NCBI GenBank assembly: GCA_963704755.1
Contig: OY969938.1
Location: 3,150,001-3,182,000, forward strand
Length of the DNA: 32,000 bases
Direction: 5' to 3'
Origin: an uncultured Chloroflexia bacterium
Lineage (GTDB): Bacteria > Chloroflexota > Anaerolineae > Anaerolineales > Anaerolineaceae
The notes under the pieces were generated by a model. It was not told the DNA's origin and did not search any database. It was given only the letters and a program-made list of their open reading frames with translations. Position numbers and translations under genes: made by a program. Every line of letters starts with the position of its first letter. The stretch's first letter is position 1. This document shows, piece after piece, positions 8,922-15,568 of this stretch.

Positions 8922-11247
8922 TCAACTTCCGTATCGGCCACCGGCCGCCTGCTCAGCCCAAACGTACTCATACCCGCTGACGTATGCCGGGTAAGCCAGG
9001 GGTACGTGTTCGCCGTACACTTCCTTTCCAACAGGTTCCTGCTCGGGCCCCGCCCTTTGCATCCTGCCTGGCTCACTAAAATCCAAAGGCCGGGTATCGG
9101 AAGGCATAGCGTCAAAAGGCTCCAGCACCGTGGCGGCCGCGCGGCGCAGTAATTCCAGGTAGCGGTCCACGTCCAGGGCATTGAAGTCCGGCTTCTCCGC
9201 CAGGTCCCAGGCCTGGACTTTGGCCGCCGTGCGCACGTAGAGGAACCGCACCCGCTGGCCGGGCTGTTTGTCTTTGCCCGCCGCGCGCAGTTGCATCAGC
9301 GCACGGGCAGCCGGGGAAGGTACTTTGTAGGCCTCCAGCTCGCGGCTGAGTTTTTGCCCGATCACCAGTTGGTCCAGCGGCACCCGGCCGTGCCGTAAAT
9401 CCGCCTCGCCTTGCAGCAGCAGCGCCTGTGCCTGCGGAATCGCCTGGCGCAGCTCTTCCGCATTTTCTGCCTGCCCGAGCACCTTGAGAATCTGCAACTG
9501 TACATCGGCGATAAACGACGGCATATCCCTGCGCCGGGCATCGATCCCGCGAAATTTGAACGATCCGTCCTGAAAAACGCCGAAATAGCGGTTGGGCACC
9601 GGCACTTTAGAATTGACTCTGGAGGGCAAGAAAACCAGCCAGCGATAGATGCCATCCAGCGCGATCGAGAGCCCCGTACGGCTCGAGATTTCATCCAGCA
9701 AAGGTTCGAACTGGTCCGGACGGTTAAAATCCTTTTTCCGCACCCACAAGCCATCCACATACATATGCAGCACCTCAAATCCCAGGTCTTCCGCGGCTTC
9801 CTTGGCCAGCAGCAGCGCCTCGCGTCCCCAGGTGGTGACCGCCTCGTGCGATTCGATCCGCCCGAAGCGGCTGTTTTTATAGCCCAGGTAGCCAAAACAG
9901 GTGACCAGCAGCCATTTGTGGGCCGACGAAATCGCCTGGTAGCGCTTATAGCGCGGGTCGGTGTCAGGCATGTTCCCCAAAGTCAGCTTGATGGTCACGC
10001 GTTTATCCAGCAGGGGTTTGAGGGTGAGAGGGATCAGCCCTGGTTCTTCGTTGGAGCCAAGGAATGTGGGCACCGGCTTTTCCGGGGAAATATTGCAGCG
10101 CACCATGATGCTGGGGTACATGGAGATAAAATCGATTTCGGCCACGTCGGAATGAACCCCGACGATGGGCTGGTAAACCAGGCCGCCTTGATCGTAGCGC
10201 AGCAGATCCAGGGCGGTTTTAGGCCGCTCGGCCTGCTGTTTGTGCCACGGCACCAGAATCTGGTTACGCAGCGCGGTAAGGATCTGCATCGAGGAAATGC
10301 CCGTGCCCGGAGAAGTGCGGGCCGAGGTTTGAATAGACAGGGCCGTGACCCGCGCGCCTTCCAAAATGCCTTCCAGGTCCTCGGCGCCCCACAAAGAGGA
10401 ATTGTGCCGGTCTACGTGACAGCGCCCAAACAGGTGGATCTGCTGGCCTTTATAAATGATCTGGCCGTAGCTGAAATAGGAATTCTCCCGCTTTTGAATT
10501 ATCCCGCGCCCGGCGTCACGGTTGAGCGGCAAGGGCACCCCCCGGCGCTGGCTTTCTTGCAGCAGCAACGGCAGCAGCCAGGTATCTCCCCACTTGCTCA
10601 AGAGGATGTCGGGGTCGACATGCTGCAGAATAGAGCCCAGGCGGGTGACCAGCGTATCCATTTGCCCAAAGGAAAGCTCAAGGACATCCTGCTCATAGCC
10701 CACCCGCAGGATGCGCGGCGGTTCATGCTGGGGGTCGCAATCCGGCTCCAGGGTAAGGACACGCAGCGGCGCCGGGAGTGGGTCAATATCCCAGGGCGAG
10801 TCCAGCACACGTACTCCATGGATCTGGCCATTATTTGCATAACTGACCTGGCAAAACGCCAGTGGAAAGGTGTTGTATACCGCAGCGTAACGCAGGCAGA
10901 GCTGAATATCCGCGTCGTAATAGGTCAGCTCGGGAAAAGCGTGCGACATTCTCAAGAACAGGTTCGGTTGAGCGGCCGCGTTGGCTACCTGGACCGTGAG
11001 CAAAGTGACCGGTTCAGGTAGAAAAAGATCGCGTCCCTGGCTGCGGCCCAATTTTAGCGATTTCGGGCTGATTTTTTAGCCAGCGCCACGCCGTTCGCAG
11101 GCGTTCGGTTGGCCCGGTTAGCGAAAATGTGACCGGAAAGTATTGATGCAGCCTCAGCCGCTCTCCGCTGCTGGTGATGAACCAGATCACTATCCCCTCA
11201 TGGCTATCCGCGTACAGGTCCAGCAGCCAGCCGGTTTGCTCGTTCAT
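8922..11247 (-). pseudogene. polB: Divergent family-B (Pol II-like) DNA polymerase, split by a +1 frameshift between 11017 and 11075
   Basis: Motif A EIDFISMYPSIM, motif B-like KWLLVTCFGYLGYKNSRFG, motif C region LHMYVDGLWV, KxY-like PNRYFG. The N-terminal 77 aa (MNEQTGWLLDLYADSHEGIVIWF..., ORF 11014-11247) are in another frame that overlaps the main 709-aa ORF (8922-11051). It may be intact if the shift is an assembly error. Confidence 0.75.
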
Positions 11248-11543
11248 ATGCGCGGTGTCTGGTTCGATTGGTCGGGAGACGCCGGCAGAGACCTCAATAC
11301 TCCCTCCAGCAGCGTACGCAGATGGGTGACCTCTTTATGTTCTTCGAGCAGCATCGAAAGCAAAAAGATTTCCATCGGCAAGGCATTGGCCGCATACGCA
11401 GCCGCTGCCAGATGGTTGTGTGCAGCGGCGAATAAATCGTCCAATACCAGTTGGTCGCTGCGGCGTAAAGCGCGCCGAAAGCGGCTGAACGATTCTTGCT
11501 CCTGCAAAAATTCCATCGTAATGGAAGGTATCGTACGTCCCAT
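11244..11543 (-). CDS. Hypothetical 99-aa helical protein, translationally coupled to the polymerase gene
   Basis: ATG at 11543 with AAGGAGG (11549-11555) 5 nt upstream. Its stop overlaps the polB ATG (ATATGA at 11244-11247). The longer ORF-track start at 11636 would overlap the upstream gene. I recognise no motif. Confidence 0.6.
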   Translation of the reverse strand: MGRTIPSITMEFLQEQESFSRFRRALRRSDQLVLDDLFAAAHNHLAAAAYAANALPMEIFLLSMLLEEHKEVTHLRTLLEGVLRSLPASPDQSNQTPRI

Positions 11544-11559
11544 AACAACCTCCTTATCG

Positions 11560-12147
11560 TTATTGATCCGGCTCTCCAGGCCAGAGCATGGGCGCTGAGG
11601 CGGTCGAAGGGCGTGGTGATTCGAGCTTGATGACATCCGAAACCGACTGTTCCAGCAACTCCAGCAAAGACGTGCGGTTTGCGCTTAACGCGAGGAACGG
11701 TTTTACGCTGATCACGACCGCCGCCGCCTGGCTGAGGCGGTCGAGCTGGATAAGGCTTTGCTGCAGCAGCCGGTAACTTTCCTCCAGGGTTACAGATTCG
11801 TCCAGGTAAGTCGAAAGCAGGTCCAACACCAGGGTAATCATGGGTAGGGCCGGGGTTTCTTCCAGCAAAGTCAGCATCTGATAACAGGTAAACGCACGCG
11901 CCAGCGAAATGCGCGCAAGCGTTTCTTCGAGTCGTGGGGTAAGACGGCGGATCGACTGGGCCACCGGGTAAACATTGAAGCGGTTGCCGCCATCCAACAC
12001 ACGCACGCCGCCTTTGAGCGCCAGGCGGGCAGCCGTTTCGTATATCAGCGGCATACCGGCATGGGGGGCAATGACCAACAGCAGTGAGTTCTTGGTTAAC
12101 TTATTCAGGGGGATTTGCCGGGAAGGTGCAGGCGAAATGGTGTGCAT
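11560..12147 (-). CDS. RecA-superfamily-fold protein with degenerate Walker A (ImuA/RadB/KaiC-like, probably not an ATPase)
   Basis: The pattern is typical of RecA-like cores: strand LLLVIAP, then HAGMPL where GxxGxGK[ST] is expected, a helix, then GGVRVLDG, ISLARAFTCYQMLTLL, a Walker-B-like MITLVLDLLSTYLDE, and LDRLSQAAAVVISVKP. AAGGAG lies 7 nt upstream of the ATG at 12147. Confidence 0.5.
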   Translation of the reverse strand: MHTISPAPSRQIPLNKLTKNSLLLVIAPHAGMPLIYETAARLALKGGVRVLDGGNRFNVYPVAQSIRRLTPRLEETLARISLARAFTCYQMLTLLEETPALPMITLVLDLLSTYLDESVTLEESYRLLQQSLIQLDRLSQAAAVVISVKPFLALSANRTSLLELLEQSVSDVIKLESPRPSTASAPMLWPGEPDQ

Positions 12148-12167: not shown

Positions 12168-12196
12168 ATTATACAGAACTTATGTTCTATAGTCAA
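12168..12196 (-). promoter_or_regulatory. Near-consensus promoter with a LexA (Cheo-type) box in its spacer
   Basis: Minus strand reads TTGACT (12191-12196), a 17-nt spacer, TATAAT (12168-12173). The spacer contains the perfect palindrome AGAAC-ATAA-GTTCT (12175-12188), which matches GAAC-N4-GTTC. Confidence 0.6.
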
Positions 12197-12254
12197 TATA
12201 GGATATGCAAGCCGGGGGAATTTCGCCGCTCCAGCTCGCATATCCTATATTGAC
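12192..12254. repeat. Perfect 17-bp inverted repeat with 29-bp spacer, overlapping the -35 of the cassette promoter
   Basis: gtcaatataggatatgc (12192-12208) is the exact reverse complement of gcatatcctatattgac (12238-12254). Confidence 0.85.
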
Positions 12255-14039: not shown

Positions 14040-14726
14040 ATGAACAAAGAAAAGACAGAACAACGCAAAAAGAACATTTTACAAACCGCCTCCAGGTTGA
14101 TCACCCACTACGGTTTCGACAAAACTACCATGGAAGACATAGCCCGCGAGGCGGGGGTATCCAAGGGGGCGCTTTACCTGGTGTGGCCCAGCAAAGATGC
14201 GCTCTTCGACGAGCTGATTGTCTTCGAGATGAAGCGGCTTGTGTTGGATTTCCAGCGCCGCATGGCGCACGACCCCCAAAGCGGTACGATCGCCAGCCTG
14301 TATACCCATGGCTTAATGGCCTTGAATGACAACCCGCTGGTGCGCGCGCTGTACACCCAGGACAGCCGCGTTCTGGGCAACTATGTCAAGCAGCAGGACG
14401 CCAGCCGTTATACCCGCCGTGTACTGCTGGCGGAAGGCACCATCCGGCAGATGCAGGCCGCCAACCTGCTGCGCCAGGATATCCGTCCCGAGGTGATCAC
14501 ACACCTGTTCAGTATCATCTCGGTGGGTTTTATTTATATCGGAACCATTATCCCGCCGGCCGACCAACCGCCCCTGGAAGAGGTTATCCGCGCCTTCAGC
14601 AGCGTAATCCAGCGCGGTTTAGGCGGCCCGGGTGAAGACACCGCCGCCGGCAAACAGGCGATTGCCAGGTTGAATGAATTTATATTGCAGCAGTACGATG
14701 AGGACGAGGCGAAGCATGAAGATTGA
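14040..14726 (+). CDS. TetR/AcrR-family transcriptional regulator
   Basis: N-terminal HTH KKNILQTASRLITHYGFDKTTMEDIAREAGVSKGALYLVWPSKDALF. I prefer the ATG at 14040 (MNKEKTEQ...) because the ORF-track start at 13968 lies inside the 25-bp palindrome. Confidence 0.85.
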   Translation: MNKEKTEQRKKNILQTASRLITHYGFDKTTMEDIAREAGVSKGALYLVWPSKDALFDELIVFEMKRLVLDFQRRMAHDPQSGTIASLYTHGLMALNDNPLVRALYTQDSRVLGNYVKQQDASRYTRRVLLAEGTIRQMQAANLLRQDIRPEVITHLFSIISVGFIYIGTIIPPADQPPLEEVIRAFSSVIQRGLGGPGEDTAAGKQAIARLNEFILQQYDEDEAKHED

Positions 14727-15568
14727 GCGCATGGAACAGCACAGTGTGCGGATCGACGGGAAAGAGATAGTCTATTACGAAGCCGGCAGCGATGGCTCGC
14801 CGGTCCTGCTGCTGCACGGCGGCGGGGTCGATTCGGCCCTGATAAGCTGGAACGAGATCATCCCCCTGCTGGCGGAAAGACACCGGGTCATCGCCCCGGA
14901 CCTGCCCGGGTACGGCCTGAGTGCCAAACCGAAAGTGGACTATACCCAGGAATACTACCTGGACTTTTTGGGCAAGTTCCTCGACGCCCTGCACCTCGAA
15001 AGGGCCAGCCTGGCCGGGCTTTCGCTGGGAGGAGGGCTTTCGCTCGGCTTCACCCTGGAACATCCCCAGCGGGTGGACAAACTCATTCTGGTTGACAGCT
15101 ATCGGGATTCAATCTTTCATGGCGTATCACAAGCTGATCTATTTTTATGTCTTCACGCCGTTAAATGAGCTTTCCTTCTGGGCATTCAAACGCAGTAAAA
15201 AGATGGTTCGTGATTCGCTGAAAGCCGCCATCTACGACCCGCAAAATATCACCGCCGAGCTGGTCGAGAGGGTCTGGCAAGAAGTAAGCAATCCCTTTGC
15301 CGGGAAGGCATTTGCCTCGTGGCAGCGCAGCGAGTGCCGCTGGAATGGCCTAAAAACCGACTATACCGGTCGCCTGGGTGAAATTCACACCCCCACGCTG
15401 ATCTTGCACGGCGACCACGATACGACTGTGCCGGTTTTCTGGGCCGAACGTGCCCATGCGGCAATTCCGGGTTCCCGCTACGTACCGCTCAAGAACCGCA
15501 GGCATTGGGCCCTTCGCGATAATCCCGATGAGATTGTCGAGATCATCCAGGGCTTTCTGGGGGAATGA
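14716..15568 (+). pseudogene. Alpha/beta-fold hydrolase (MhpC/BphD-like) interrupted by a +1 frameshift near 15101-15107
   Basis: HGGG oxyanion motif, nucleophile elbow GLSLGG, and C-terminal LILHGDHDTTVP ... RHWALRDNP (Asp and His of the triad). The N-terminal part (ORF 14674-15168) and C-terminal part (ORF 14921-15568) are in different frames. The sequence reads through as ...KLILVDSY[G/R]IQSFMAYHKL... if one base around tatcggg is removed. Confidence 0.75.

What the first reader, a model, noticed from the sequence alone, without database searches (positions are those of the whole stretch)
9750..10750. PolB catalytic motifs: exonuclease sites look inactivated or permuted, and motif C reads YVDG instead of YGDTDS
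**Manual alignment to my recollection of E. coli Pol II**
- Exo I: PLKWVSIDIETT aligns with PLRVLTLEPDCD, so DxE becomes ExD (around nt 10740-10750).
- Exo II: DPDVIIGWNVVQFDLRML aligns without gaps over 34 residues with DPDILLSKWGDTWLLPLL. The conserved Asn and Asp become Trp and Leu (around nt 10572-10619).
- Motif A Asp is present (EIDFISMYPS).
- Motif C: IYGDTDS aligns with HMYVDGL, so only the second Asp is retained (codon at 9753-9755).

**Inference**
- The protein is a proofreading-deficient but possibly still catalytic B-family polymerase. That would fit a translesion role.
- Alternatively it is a non-catalytic scaffold.
Basis: partly seen in the sequence, partly recalled or inferred. 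Interest (0 to 1): 0.6.

Follow-up and report, generated by a model that had tools for sequence, protein, structure and literature searches.

The report
SOS-controlled PolB2 translesion polymerase operon
The odd-looking family-B DNA polymerase is an ordinary member of the already described bacterial PolB2 (G2) group: a proofreading-dead but probably active repair polymerase, encoded with its two known partner proteins behind a LexA (DNA-damage) operator.

Summary
Exo I DxE reads ExD. The Exo II Asn and Asp are Trp and Leu. The motif A Asp is kept. Motif C YGDTDS reads HMYVDG, with the surviving Asp at nt 9753-9755.

This is a family signature, not decay. The same pattern holds in 120 close and 113 distant relatives. 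The Exo III segment is deleted. Motif C is the published PolB2 signature HxxxD.

The gene is the third of a three-gene operon, iRadA-PPB2-PolB2 (window 12147-8922, minus strand):
- iRadA is a RadA/Rad51-fold protein without a Walker A motif.
- PPB2 is a 99-aa protein that starts with MGRT.
- This is the published archaeal-derived bacterial PolB2/G2 "mutasome".
- A perfect LexA box sits between the -35 and -10 of the operon promoter.

Archaeal PolB2 (Sulfolobus Dpo2) is an active, exonuclease-free extender in translesion synthesis.

The frameshift near codon 61 is probably an assembly error. About 8.5% of long conserved genes in this assembly are split the same way.

Novelty is low: this is a new member of a known kind, with small Anaerolineales-specific motif variants.

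The parts
12168..12196 (-). Operon promoter: -35 TTGACT (12196-12191), 17-nt spacer, -10 TATAAT (12173-12168)
   Evidence: Consensus scan scores 11 of 12. The sequence was read.
12175..12188 (.). LexA (SOS) box AGAACATAAGTTCT, a perfect palindrome that fills the promoter spacer
   Evidence: Exact GAACN4GTTC match. The genome's own lexA carries CGAACAATTGTTCT 83 nt upstream of its start. In 80 related loci, 42 of 46 exact boxes lie upstream of the operon.
11560..12147 (-). iRadA: a 195-aa RadA/Rad51-fold protein without Walker A. Its C-terminus reads ...APMLWPGEPDQ where relatives have Q(L/P)xLF.
   Evidence: No Pfam hit. The profile of 9 orthologues hits RadA in the PDB at E 7e-7. The AlphaFold2 model has pLDDT 85.3. 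Foldseek finds RadA/Rad51 at E 8e-9, TM 0.6-0.7. Alignment.
11244..11543 (-). PPB2: a 99-aa protein starting MGRTIPSIT. It is preceded by AAGGAGG, and its stop overlaps the polB2 ATG (ATGA).
   Evidence: Translation and sequence. MGRT starts all 12 orthologues of the same order and 72 of 77 in named Anaerolineales. MGRT is the published PPB2 signature (PMC11791011).
11065..11247 (-). PolB2 N-terminal 60-61 codons (MNEQTGWLLDLYAD...WRWLKNQ) in their own frame
   Evidence: tblastn with intact homologues P0004 and P0006 gives 61-64% identity.
11061..11067 (-). Frame break: one extra base in CCC/GAAA, next to an A6 run at 11072-11077. Removing it gives one ORF of about 774 codons.
   Evidence: Both tblastn segments meet here. 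All relatives are in one frame. Of 94 long conserved genes in this assembly, 8 are split likewise near homopolymers.
8922..11066 (-). PolB2 body (P0001, 709 aa from TTG 11051): degenerate exonuclease domain, then palm, fingers and thumb. The tail 657-709 is disordered.
   Evidence: PF00136 at 1.5e-31. NF004416 at 392 bits. AlphaFold2 pLDDT 87.3. Foldseek best hits are archaeal PolBs.
10740..10748 (-). Exo I remnant E102-P-D104 in place of DxE
10563..10616 (-). Exo II remnant DPDILLSKWGDTWLLPLL, with W154 and L159 in place of Asn and Asp. GDTW is invariant in the clade.
10188..10229 (-). E275-R-PKTA...D287-Q-GG: the clade's version of the PolB2-specific FxxA-like iRadA-binding motif and of the D(K/R) motif
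   Evidence: D287 is invariant in 113 of 113 representatives, and the next residue is K or R in 101 of 113. It is Q in 116 of 120 close homologues, and Pro replaces Phe in 77 of 120. Motif roles are from PMC11791011.
10110..10133 (-). Motif A DFISMYPS (D307 metal ligand, Y312 steric gate)
9888..9917 (-). Motif B KWLLVTCFGY (K379 kept; Asn becomes Val and Tyr becomes Phe)
9753..9767 (-). Motif C H429-M-Y-V-D433, the PolB2 signature HxxxD
   Evidence: PMC8764526

Best explanation
Window 12196-8922 (minus strand) is a LexA-repressed iRadA-PPB2-PolB2 operon. It is the bacterial (G2) form of the archaeal PolB2 "mutasome", in an Anaerolineales (Chloroflexota) genome.

Shown here:
- The polymerase has the full B-family fold.
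- Its exonuclease site is gone: Exo I and II are substituted and Exo III is deleted.
- Its motif C is HMYVD. The Asp pair that binds the catalytic metals (motif A D307, motif C D433), the motif B Lys and the steric-gate Tyr are strictly conserved.
- It is translationally coupled to a 99-aa MGRT protein (PPB2).
- It is preceded by a RadA-fold protein that lacks Walker A (iRadA).
- A perfect AGAAC-N4-GTTCT box fills the spacer of a near-consensus promoter, and the genome's own lexA gene carries the same type of box.

Inferred from the archaeal enzyme and published models:
- After DNA damage, LexA cleavage de-represses the operon.
- PolB2, a PPB2 trimer and iRadA assemble into a complex.
- The complex is tethered to the beta-clamp through the iRadA C-terminus.
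- It extends primer ends that an inserter has placed opposite lesions or mismatches, without proofreading. The genome encodes one Y-family polymerase that could be that inserter.

The single-base frame break near codon 61 is most likely an assembly error, so the gene is probably intact in the organism.
For: Family signature:
- HxxxD is conserved, with H429 in 111 of 120 and D433 in 120 of 120.
- D287 of the D(K/R) motif is invariant in 113 of 113.
- Exo III is missing.
- These are the features listed for B2/G2 in PMC7544198 and PMC8764526.
- An Asgard (Helarchaeota) protein with the same signature scores E 1e-89, against 9e-35 for the best solved canonical PolB.

Partners and gene order:
- iRadA matches RadA by profile at 7e-7 and by fold at 8e-9.
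- PPB2 starts with MGRT.
- The order iRadA-PPB2-PolB2 holds in 12 of 12 and 74 of 80 relatives. It is the only order reported in bacteria (PMC11791011).

SOS control:
- The LexA box lies within the promoter spacer.
- lexA has its own box.
- In relatives, 42 of 46 boxes lie upstream of the operon.

Activity: Dpo2, with the same motif C, is active, lacks exonuclease and acts as an extender (PMC8764526).

Genome context: one Y-family polymerase and no other PolB.

Frameshift: 8 of 94 long conserved genes are split near homopolymers in this assembly, recJ among them. All relatives are intact.
Against: - No bacterial PolB2 has been assayed. Activity, the extender role, complex formation and LexA binding are all inferred.
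- The window's clade departs from the published contact motifs. It has DQ instead of D(K/R), and PKTA instead of the F-containing FxxA-like motif.
- iRadA ends in APMLW plus six residues instead of QLxLF. The modelled interfaces and the clamp tether may therefore differ.
- The frame break lies in 3-base runs, shorter than most of the other break sites. A real recent inactivating mutation cannot be excluded without reads.
- No phylogenetic tree with named archaeal B2, B1 and B3 sequences was built here.
Confidence: 0.82

Rival explanations
1. Non-catalytic scaffold. The polymerase domain is dead as well, and the protein only nucleates a repair complex, as the C-terminal half of Pol epsilon does.
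For: - The first motif C Asp is lost, and so are motif B Asn and Tyr.
- PolB2 was long predicted to be inactive, as recounted in PMC8764526 and PMC11791011.
Against: - D307, Y312, K379, D433, R351 and K355 stay at 90% or more in relatives down to 31% identity. A scaffold has no need for that.
- Sulfolobus Dpo2, with the same HxxxD, is as active as the replicase (PMC8764526).
- Primer-independent PolBs that also lack the first Asp are efficient polymerases (PMC7544198).
Confidence: 0.05
2. The family is functional, but this copy is a real, recent pseudogene. A genuine one-base insertion near codon 61 truncates PolB2, so this strain has lost the mutasome.
For: - The frame break is in the deposited sequence.
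- It lies in 3-base runs rather than a long homopolymer.
- iRadA also has an atypical C-terminus.
Against: - It is the only defect in about 2.3 kb. The 709-codon body is open and 76% identical to an intact homologue.
- 8.5% of long conserved genes in this assembly carry the same kind of break, including recJ and a tRNA nucleotidyltransferase. That fits residual indel errors.
- An alpha/beta-hydrolase gene in the same window is also split.
- The APxLW iRadA ending recurs in relatives with intact polB2.
Confidence: 0.12
3. Programmed +1 ribosomal frameshift at CCC-GAA that limits expression of a mutagenic polymerase.
For: A CCC codon can be slip-prone, and tight control of a mutator would make sense. 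No tool result supports this reading.
Against: - None of 92 related loci has the frame break.
- There is no in-frame stop or rare codon at the site.
- The assembly is rich in frameshifts elsewhere.
Confidence: 0.01

Closest known systems
Bacterial PolB2 / group G2 mutasome operon iRadA-PPB2-PolB2 (Kazlauskas et al. 2020, PMC7544198; Timinskas et al. 2025, PMC11791011; PMC12926913)
   Same: - Dead Exo I and II, and Exo III missing.
- A single Asp in motif C, with the invariant His (HxxxD).
- The invariant Asp just before motif A.
- A RadA-fold partner without Walker A.
- An MGRT-starting small partner.
- The gene order iRadA-PPB2-PolB2.
- A link to LexA.
   Different: - The Anaerolineales clade has DQ instead of D(K/R).
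- It mostly has PKTA instead of an F-containing FxxA-like motif.
- The window's iRadA ends in APMLW plus six residues rather than QLxLF.
- Here lexA is not a neighbour. Instead a LexA operator sits inside the promoter.
- polB2 carries a frame break that is probably artefactual.
Archaeal PolB2: Sulfolobus islandicus / Saccharolobus solfataricus Dpo2 (PMC8764526, PMC7390963)
   Same: - The HxxxD motif C and the lack of exonuclease motifs.
- Damage-inducible expression (experimental there, LexA box here).
- The partner genes.
- This is the only member with biochemistry: active polymerase, no exonuclease, extender of mismatched and lesion-opposed termini.
   Different: - Dpo2 is much smaller and has IID rather than YVD.
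- It uses PCNA-type motifs and an Orc1/Cdc6-type regulator.
- Identity to the window protein was not measured, because no Dpo2 sequence was available in the tools.
   Same: - B-family fold.
- SOS/LexA regulation.
- Alignable Exo II region and motifs A, B and C.
   Different: - Pol II has intact DxE, NxxxFD, YxxxD and YGDTDS, proofreads, and binds the clamp through its own C-terminus.
- The window protein scores 51 bits against the Pol II NCBIfam model, whose cut-off is 570.
- The family profile matches archaeal PolBs at 1e-103 but Pol II only at 3e-28.
Eukaryotic Pol zeta (Rev3) and the bacterial ImuA-ImuB-DnaE2 and Pol V mutasomes
   Same: - Functional analogy only: an exonuclease-dead or exonuclease-free, damage-induced, multi-subunit extender or mutasome.
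- A RecA-like inactive partner, as ImuA is.
   Different: Unrelated or only distantly related proteins. These are not the same family.

Membership tests
PolB2 / G2 (B-family, archaeal-derived TLS polymerase) | Complete B-family polymerase fold, closest to archaeal PolBs | tested here: met
   PF00136 at 1.5e-31. The family profile hits Thermococcales and Pyrobaculum PolBs at 1e-102 to 1e-103. AlphaFold2 pLDDT is 87.3, and Foldseek gives 5mdn, KOD and 9N at TM 0.6-0.7.
PolB2 / G2 (B-family, archaeal-derived TLS polymerase) | Exo I not conserved, Exo II catalytic residues substituted, Exo III missing | tested here: met
   Exo I is ExD with a free first position. Exo II has W154 and L159. Only about 11 residues stand where the Exo III segment should be.
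PolB2 / G2 (B-family, archaeal-derived TLS polymerase) | Motif C is HxxxD: invariant His, first Asp lost, second Asp kept | tested here: met
   HMYVD. H429 is kept in 111 of 120 and D433 in 120 of 120. Among 34 diverse members His is kept in 31 and no member has Asp at the first position.
PolB2 / G2 (B-family, archaeal-derived TLS polymerase) | Group-specific D(K/R) motif about 20 residues before motif A | tested here: inconclusive
   The Asp (D287) is present and invariant in 113 of 113. The second residue is Q here and in 116 of 120 close homologues. Across the family it is K or R in 101 of 113 and Q in 8 of 113. This is a clade variant of the motif.
PolB2 / G2 (B-family, archaeal-derived TLS polymerase) | Nested within archaeal B2 in a phylogeny | not tested
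   No tree was built, because named archaeal B1, B2 and B3 sequences were not obtainable. Indirect evidence: a Helarchaeota protein with the same signature scores 1e-89, against 9e-35 for the best canonical PolB.
PolB2 mutasome operon | iRadA partner: RadA/Rad51 ATPase-core fold, no N-terminal domain, ATPase site lost | tested here: met
   The 195-aa protein matches RadA by profile at 7e-7 and by fold at 8e-9. No GxxxxGK(T/S) is present anywhere in the sequence.
PolB2 mutasome operon | PPB2 partner: small protein with a conserved N-terminal MGRT arm | tested here: met
   MGRTIPSIT, 99 aa. MGRT is present in 12 of 12 and 72 of 77 relatives.
PolB2 mutasome operon | Gene order iRadA-PPB2-PolB2 on one strand, the only order seen in bacteria | tested here: met
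   Window 12147 to 8922, with a 16-nt gap and an ATGA overlap. The order is the same in 12 of 12 and 74 of 80 relatives.
PolB2 mutasome operon | Beta-clamp-binding motif (QLxLF type) at the C-terminus of iRadA or PolB2 | tested here: inconclusive
   Eight of nine aligned orthologues end in Q(L/P)xLF. The window has APMLWPGEPDQ. Similar A/P-x-LW endings occur in three named relatives. No motif was found in the PolB2 tail. Binding was not tested.
PolB2 mutasome operon | DNA-damage-inducible control (LexA in bacteria) | tested here: met
   This was tested in silico only. AGAACATAAGTTCT lies between -35 and -10. lexA carries the same type of box. In relatives, 42 of 46 boxes lie upstream of the operon.
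PolB2 / G2 (B-family, archaeal-derived TLS polymerase) | Polymerase activity without 3'-5' exonuclease; mismatch and lesion extension | not testable with these tools
   Biochemistry exists only for Sulfolobus Dpo2 (PMC8764526).
E. coli-type DNA polymerase II | Intact DxE, Nx2-3FD, Yx3D and YGDTDS; score above the family-model cut-off | tested here: not met
   All four motifs are altered or absent. NF004421 scores 51 bits against a cut-off of 570.

The most novel reading that the evidence does not exclude
In the Anaerolineales clade the three published contact elements of the mutasome have all changed together.
- The PolB2 FxxA-like iRadA-binding motif has F replaced by P.
- The D(K/R) contact to the PPB2 arm reads DQ.
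- In a sub-branch that includes this window, the iRadA clamp motif QLxLF reads PxLW.
- Many relatives also add a LexA-controlled GerE/LuxR-type HTH gene as the first gene of the operon.

The complex may therefore be wired or regulated differently here than in the published models.
Probability: 0.15. Interest if true: 0.4.

Novelty: new member of a known kind. Interest (0 to 1): 0.2.

Why it matters
It settles the annotation. The gene is neither a decayed Pol II nor a dead polymerase. It is the catalytic subunit of an SOS-regulated PolB2 mutasome, the likely source of damage-induced mutagenesis in Anaerolineales.

No bacterial PolB2 has been characterised biochemically. A mesophilic or moderately thermophilic member from cultured relatives (Leptolinea, Levilinea) would be a practical entry point, because it comes with a clear LexA operator and both partner genes.

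The finding also flags that this assembly carries many single-base indels, which matters for every "frameshift" reported from it.

Tried and rejected
Genomic context came from the genome search and the search for related loci instead.
- mafft --auto on 120 sequences timed out. It was rerun in a fast mode.
- Pfam gave nothing for iRadA or PPB2. iRadA needed an orthologue profile and a fold search.
- NF004416 is the best NCBIfam model, but neither the window protein (392 bits) nor intact homologues (389-404 bits) reach its 516-bit cut-off. None of the 14 control genomes does either. That model therefore cannot be used as a membership test.
- "Stops inside" flagged for two relatives were the true stop codons at the ends of the matches, not disruptions.
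- My first count of LexA boxes looked only within 200 nt of iRadA and found 14 exact boxes. It undercounted because many relatives have an extra gene in between. A recount over whole loci found 42 upstream boxes.
- Membership of E. coli Pol II was considered and rejected.
- A programmed frameshift was considered and rejected.
- No tree against named archaeal PolB1, B2 and B3 could be built.
- Three paper look-ups failed on term syntax.
Full report
**What is there**

The finding lies in a 709-codon ORF on the minus strand (8922-11051, P0001).
- Pfam sees only the B-family polymerase domain PF00136 (1.5e-31) and no exonuclease-domain family.
- The best NCBIfam model is an archaeal-type "type B DNA polymerase" (NF004416, 392 bits).
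- The E. coli Pol II model scores 51 bits against a cut-off of 570.

**Checking the observation**

phmmer against solved structures aligns the protein best to archaeal PolBs (5mdn, 9e-35).

| Motif | Canonical PolB | Window protein |
|---|---|---|
| Exo I | FDIEV | LEPDC |
| Exo II | YNSNGFD | KWGDTWL |
| Motif A | DFSSMYP | DFISMYP |
| Motif C | YGDTDS | HMYVDG |

- I fetched the real E. coli polB gene.
- The coordinates are also right. D433 is nt 9755-9753 and the Exo I remnant is 10748-10740.
- The Exo III segment is absent. About 11 residues separate GRCHVD from LEGILE, where canonical enzymes have about 60.
- Motif B keeps its Lys but has Val for Asn and Phe for Tyr.

**Not decay**

More than 4000 homologues exist.
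- In the 120 closest (56-76% identity), the altered residues are themselves conserved: H429 in 111, Y431 in 119, D433 in 120, and GDTW in 116-120.
- The former Exo I Asp position drifts freely among E, K, R, A and Q.
- In 113 cluster representatives at 31-54% identity, D307, Y312, K379, H429, D433, R351 and K355 remain at 90% or more.
- An AlphaFold2 model (pLDDT 87.3) has the complete PolB architecture and superposes best on archaeal PolBs.

**What it is**

The literature describes exactly this.
- Archaeal PolB2 and its bacterial offshoot G2 have a non-conserved Exo I, no Exo III, one Asp in motif C and a group-specific D(K/R) motif (PMC7544198).
- Motif C is HxxxD with an invariant His (PMC8764526).
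- The gene sits in an operon with iRadA, an inactive RadA, and PPB2, a small helical protein whose N-terminus is MGRT. Bacteria show only the order iRadA-PPB2-PolB2 (PMC11791011).

All of this is found in the window.
- The ORF just upstream (11543-11244) starts MGRTIPSIT. It follows an AAGGAGG, and its stop overlaps the polB2 ATG.
- The next ORF upstream (12147-11560, 195 aa) has no Pfam hit. A profile of nine orthologues hits RadA at 7e-7.
- Its model (pLDDT 85) matches RadA/Rad51 cores at E 8e-9. The sequence has no Walker A.
- The three-gene order and MGRT recur in 12 of 12 loci of the same order.
- In 80 named Anaerolineales genomes, including Leptolinea, Levilinea, Bellilinea, Pelolinea and Flexilinea, the order recurs in 74 of 80 and MGRT in 72 of 77.
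- A Helarchaeota protein with the same signature (HGIVD, FKTA...DKGG) scores 1e-89. That is far above any canonical PolB.

**Regulation**

- The operon promoter is TTGACT-17-TATAAT.
- Its spacer is filled by the perfect palindrome AGAACATAAGTTCT (12175-12188).
- The genome's lexA gene has CGAACAATTGTTCT 83 nt upstream of its start.
- In the 80 related loci, 42 of 46 exact GAAC-N4-GTTC sites lie upstream of the operon, and nearly all are AGAAC-N4-GTTCT.
- SOS control is therefore well supported in silico.
- The genome has one Y-family polymerase and no other PolB. That fits the inserter-plus-extender scheme shown for Sulfolobus Dpo4 and Dpo2.

**The frameshift**

- The first 60-61 codons lie in another frame, from the ATG at 11247. 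The break is at 11061-11067 (CCC/GAAA), and one extra base accounts for it.
- All relatives are intact.
- I took 94 long ORFs from a genome of the same genus and compared them with this assembly. Eight (8.5%, about one per 17 kb of coding DNA) are split between frames at one place. They include recJ and a tRNA nucleotidyltransferase, and most breaks lie next to homopolymers.
- An alpha/beta-hydrolase gene in the window is split as well.
- The break is therefore most likely an assembly error. A real recent mutation remains possible, at about 0.12.

**Differences from the published picture**

- In this clade the D(K/R) motif reads DQ (116 of 120).
- The FxxA-like iRadA-binding motif mostly reads PKTA (77 of 120).
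- The window's iRadA ends in APMLWPGEPDQ where most relatives have Q(L/P)xLF.
- These are small clade-level variants. Their effect on the modelled interfaces is unknown.

**Verdict**

It has not been shown experimentally for any bacterial member.
- The gene is an ordinary new member of a known, recently described family, so interest is low.

Noticed in passing
L075:981-1406, L047:977-1378, L065:982-1395, L074:1014-1415, L101:1056-1406 (33 of 80 related loci): Many Anaerolineales relatives carry a small (116-141 aa) GerE/LuxR-type HTH gene between the LexA box and iRadA, as the first gene of the operon. It is absent from the window's operon, and the own genome shows only generic GerE-domain hits. 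The PolB2 papers I read do not mention it among enriched neighbours.
   Followed up: partly
window 14674-15568 (+): An alpha/beta-hydrolase gene is split into two overlapping ORFs in different frames (Pfam profile positions 2-103 and 127-245). The break lies between about 15109 and 15140, near a T5 run. It is a second apparent frameshift in this window.
   Followed up: partly
G000 genome-wide (for example 818944-818948 recJ; 4483563-4483600 tRNA nucleotidyltransferase): About 8.5% of long conserved genes are split between frames near homopolymers. The single-contig assembly also shows 5% "contamination" at 96% completeness. Together these suggest residual indel errors, so any frameshift reported from this genome needs read-level confirmation.
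   Followed up: yes
window 12192-12208 and 12238-12254: A perfect 17-bp inverted repeat (GCATATCCTATATTGAC and its complement) has arms 29 bp apart. Its promoter-proximal arm overlaps the -35 of the operon promoter, just upstream of the LexA box. It could be a second operator or a hairpin element. It was not tested.
   Followed up: no
L064 (MAG labelled Gammaproteobacteria) and L103 (MAG labelled Syntrophothermus): Two short contigs binned to non-Chloroflexota MAGs carry PolB2 genes 51-53% identical to the window's, which is typical of Anaerolineales. This is probably mis-binning rather than transfer.
   Followed up: no
window 8922-9083 (PolB2 residues 657-709): The C-terminal 50 or so residues are predicted to be disordered (pLDDT below 50). 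They extend about 36 residues beyond the closest homologue, and no clamp-binding motif is recognisable in them.
   Followed up: no
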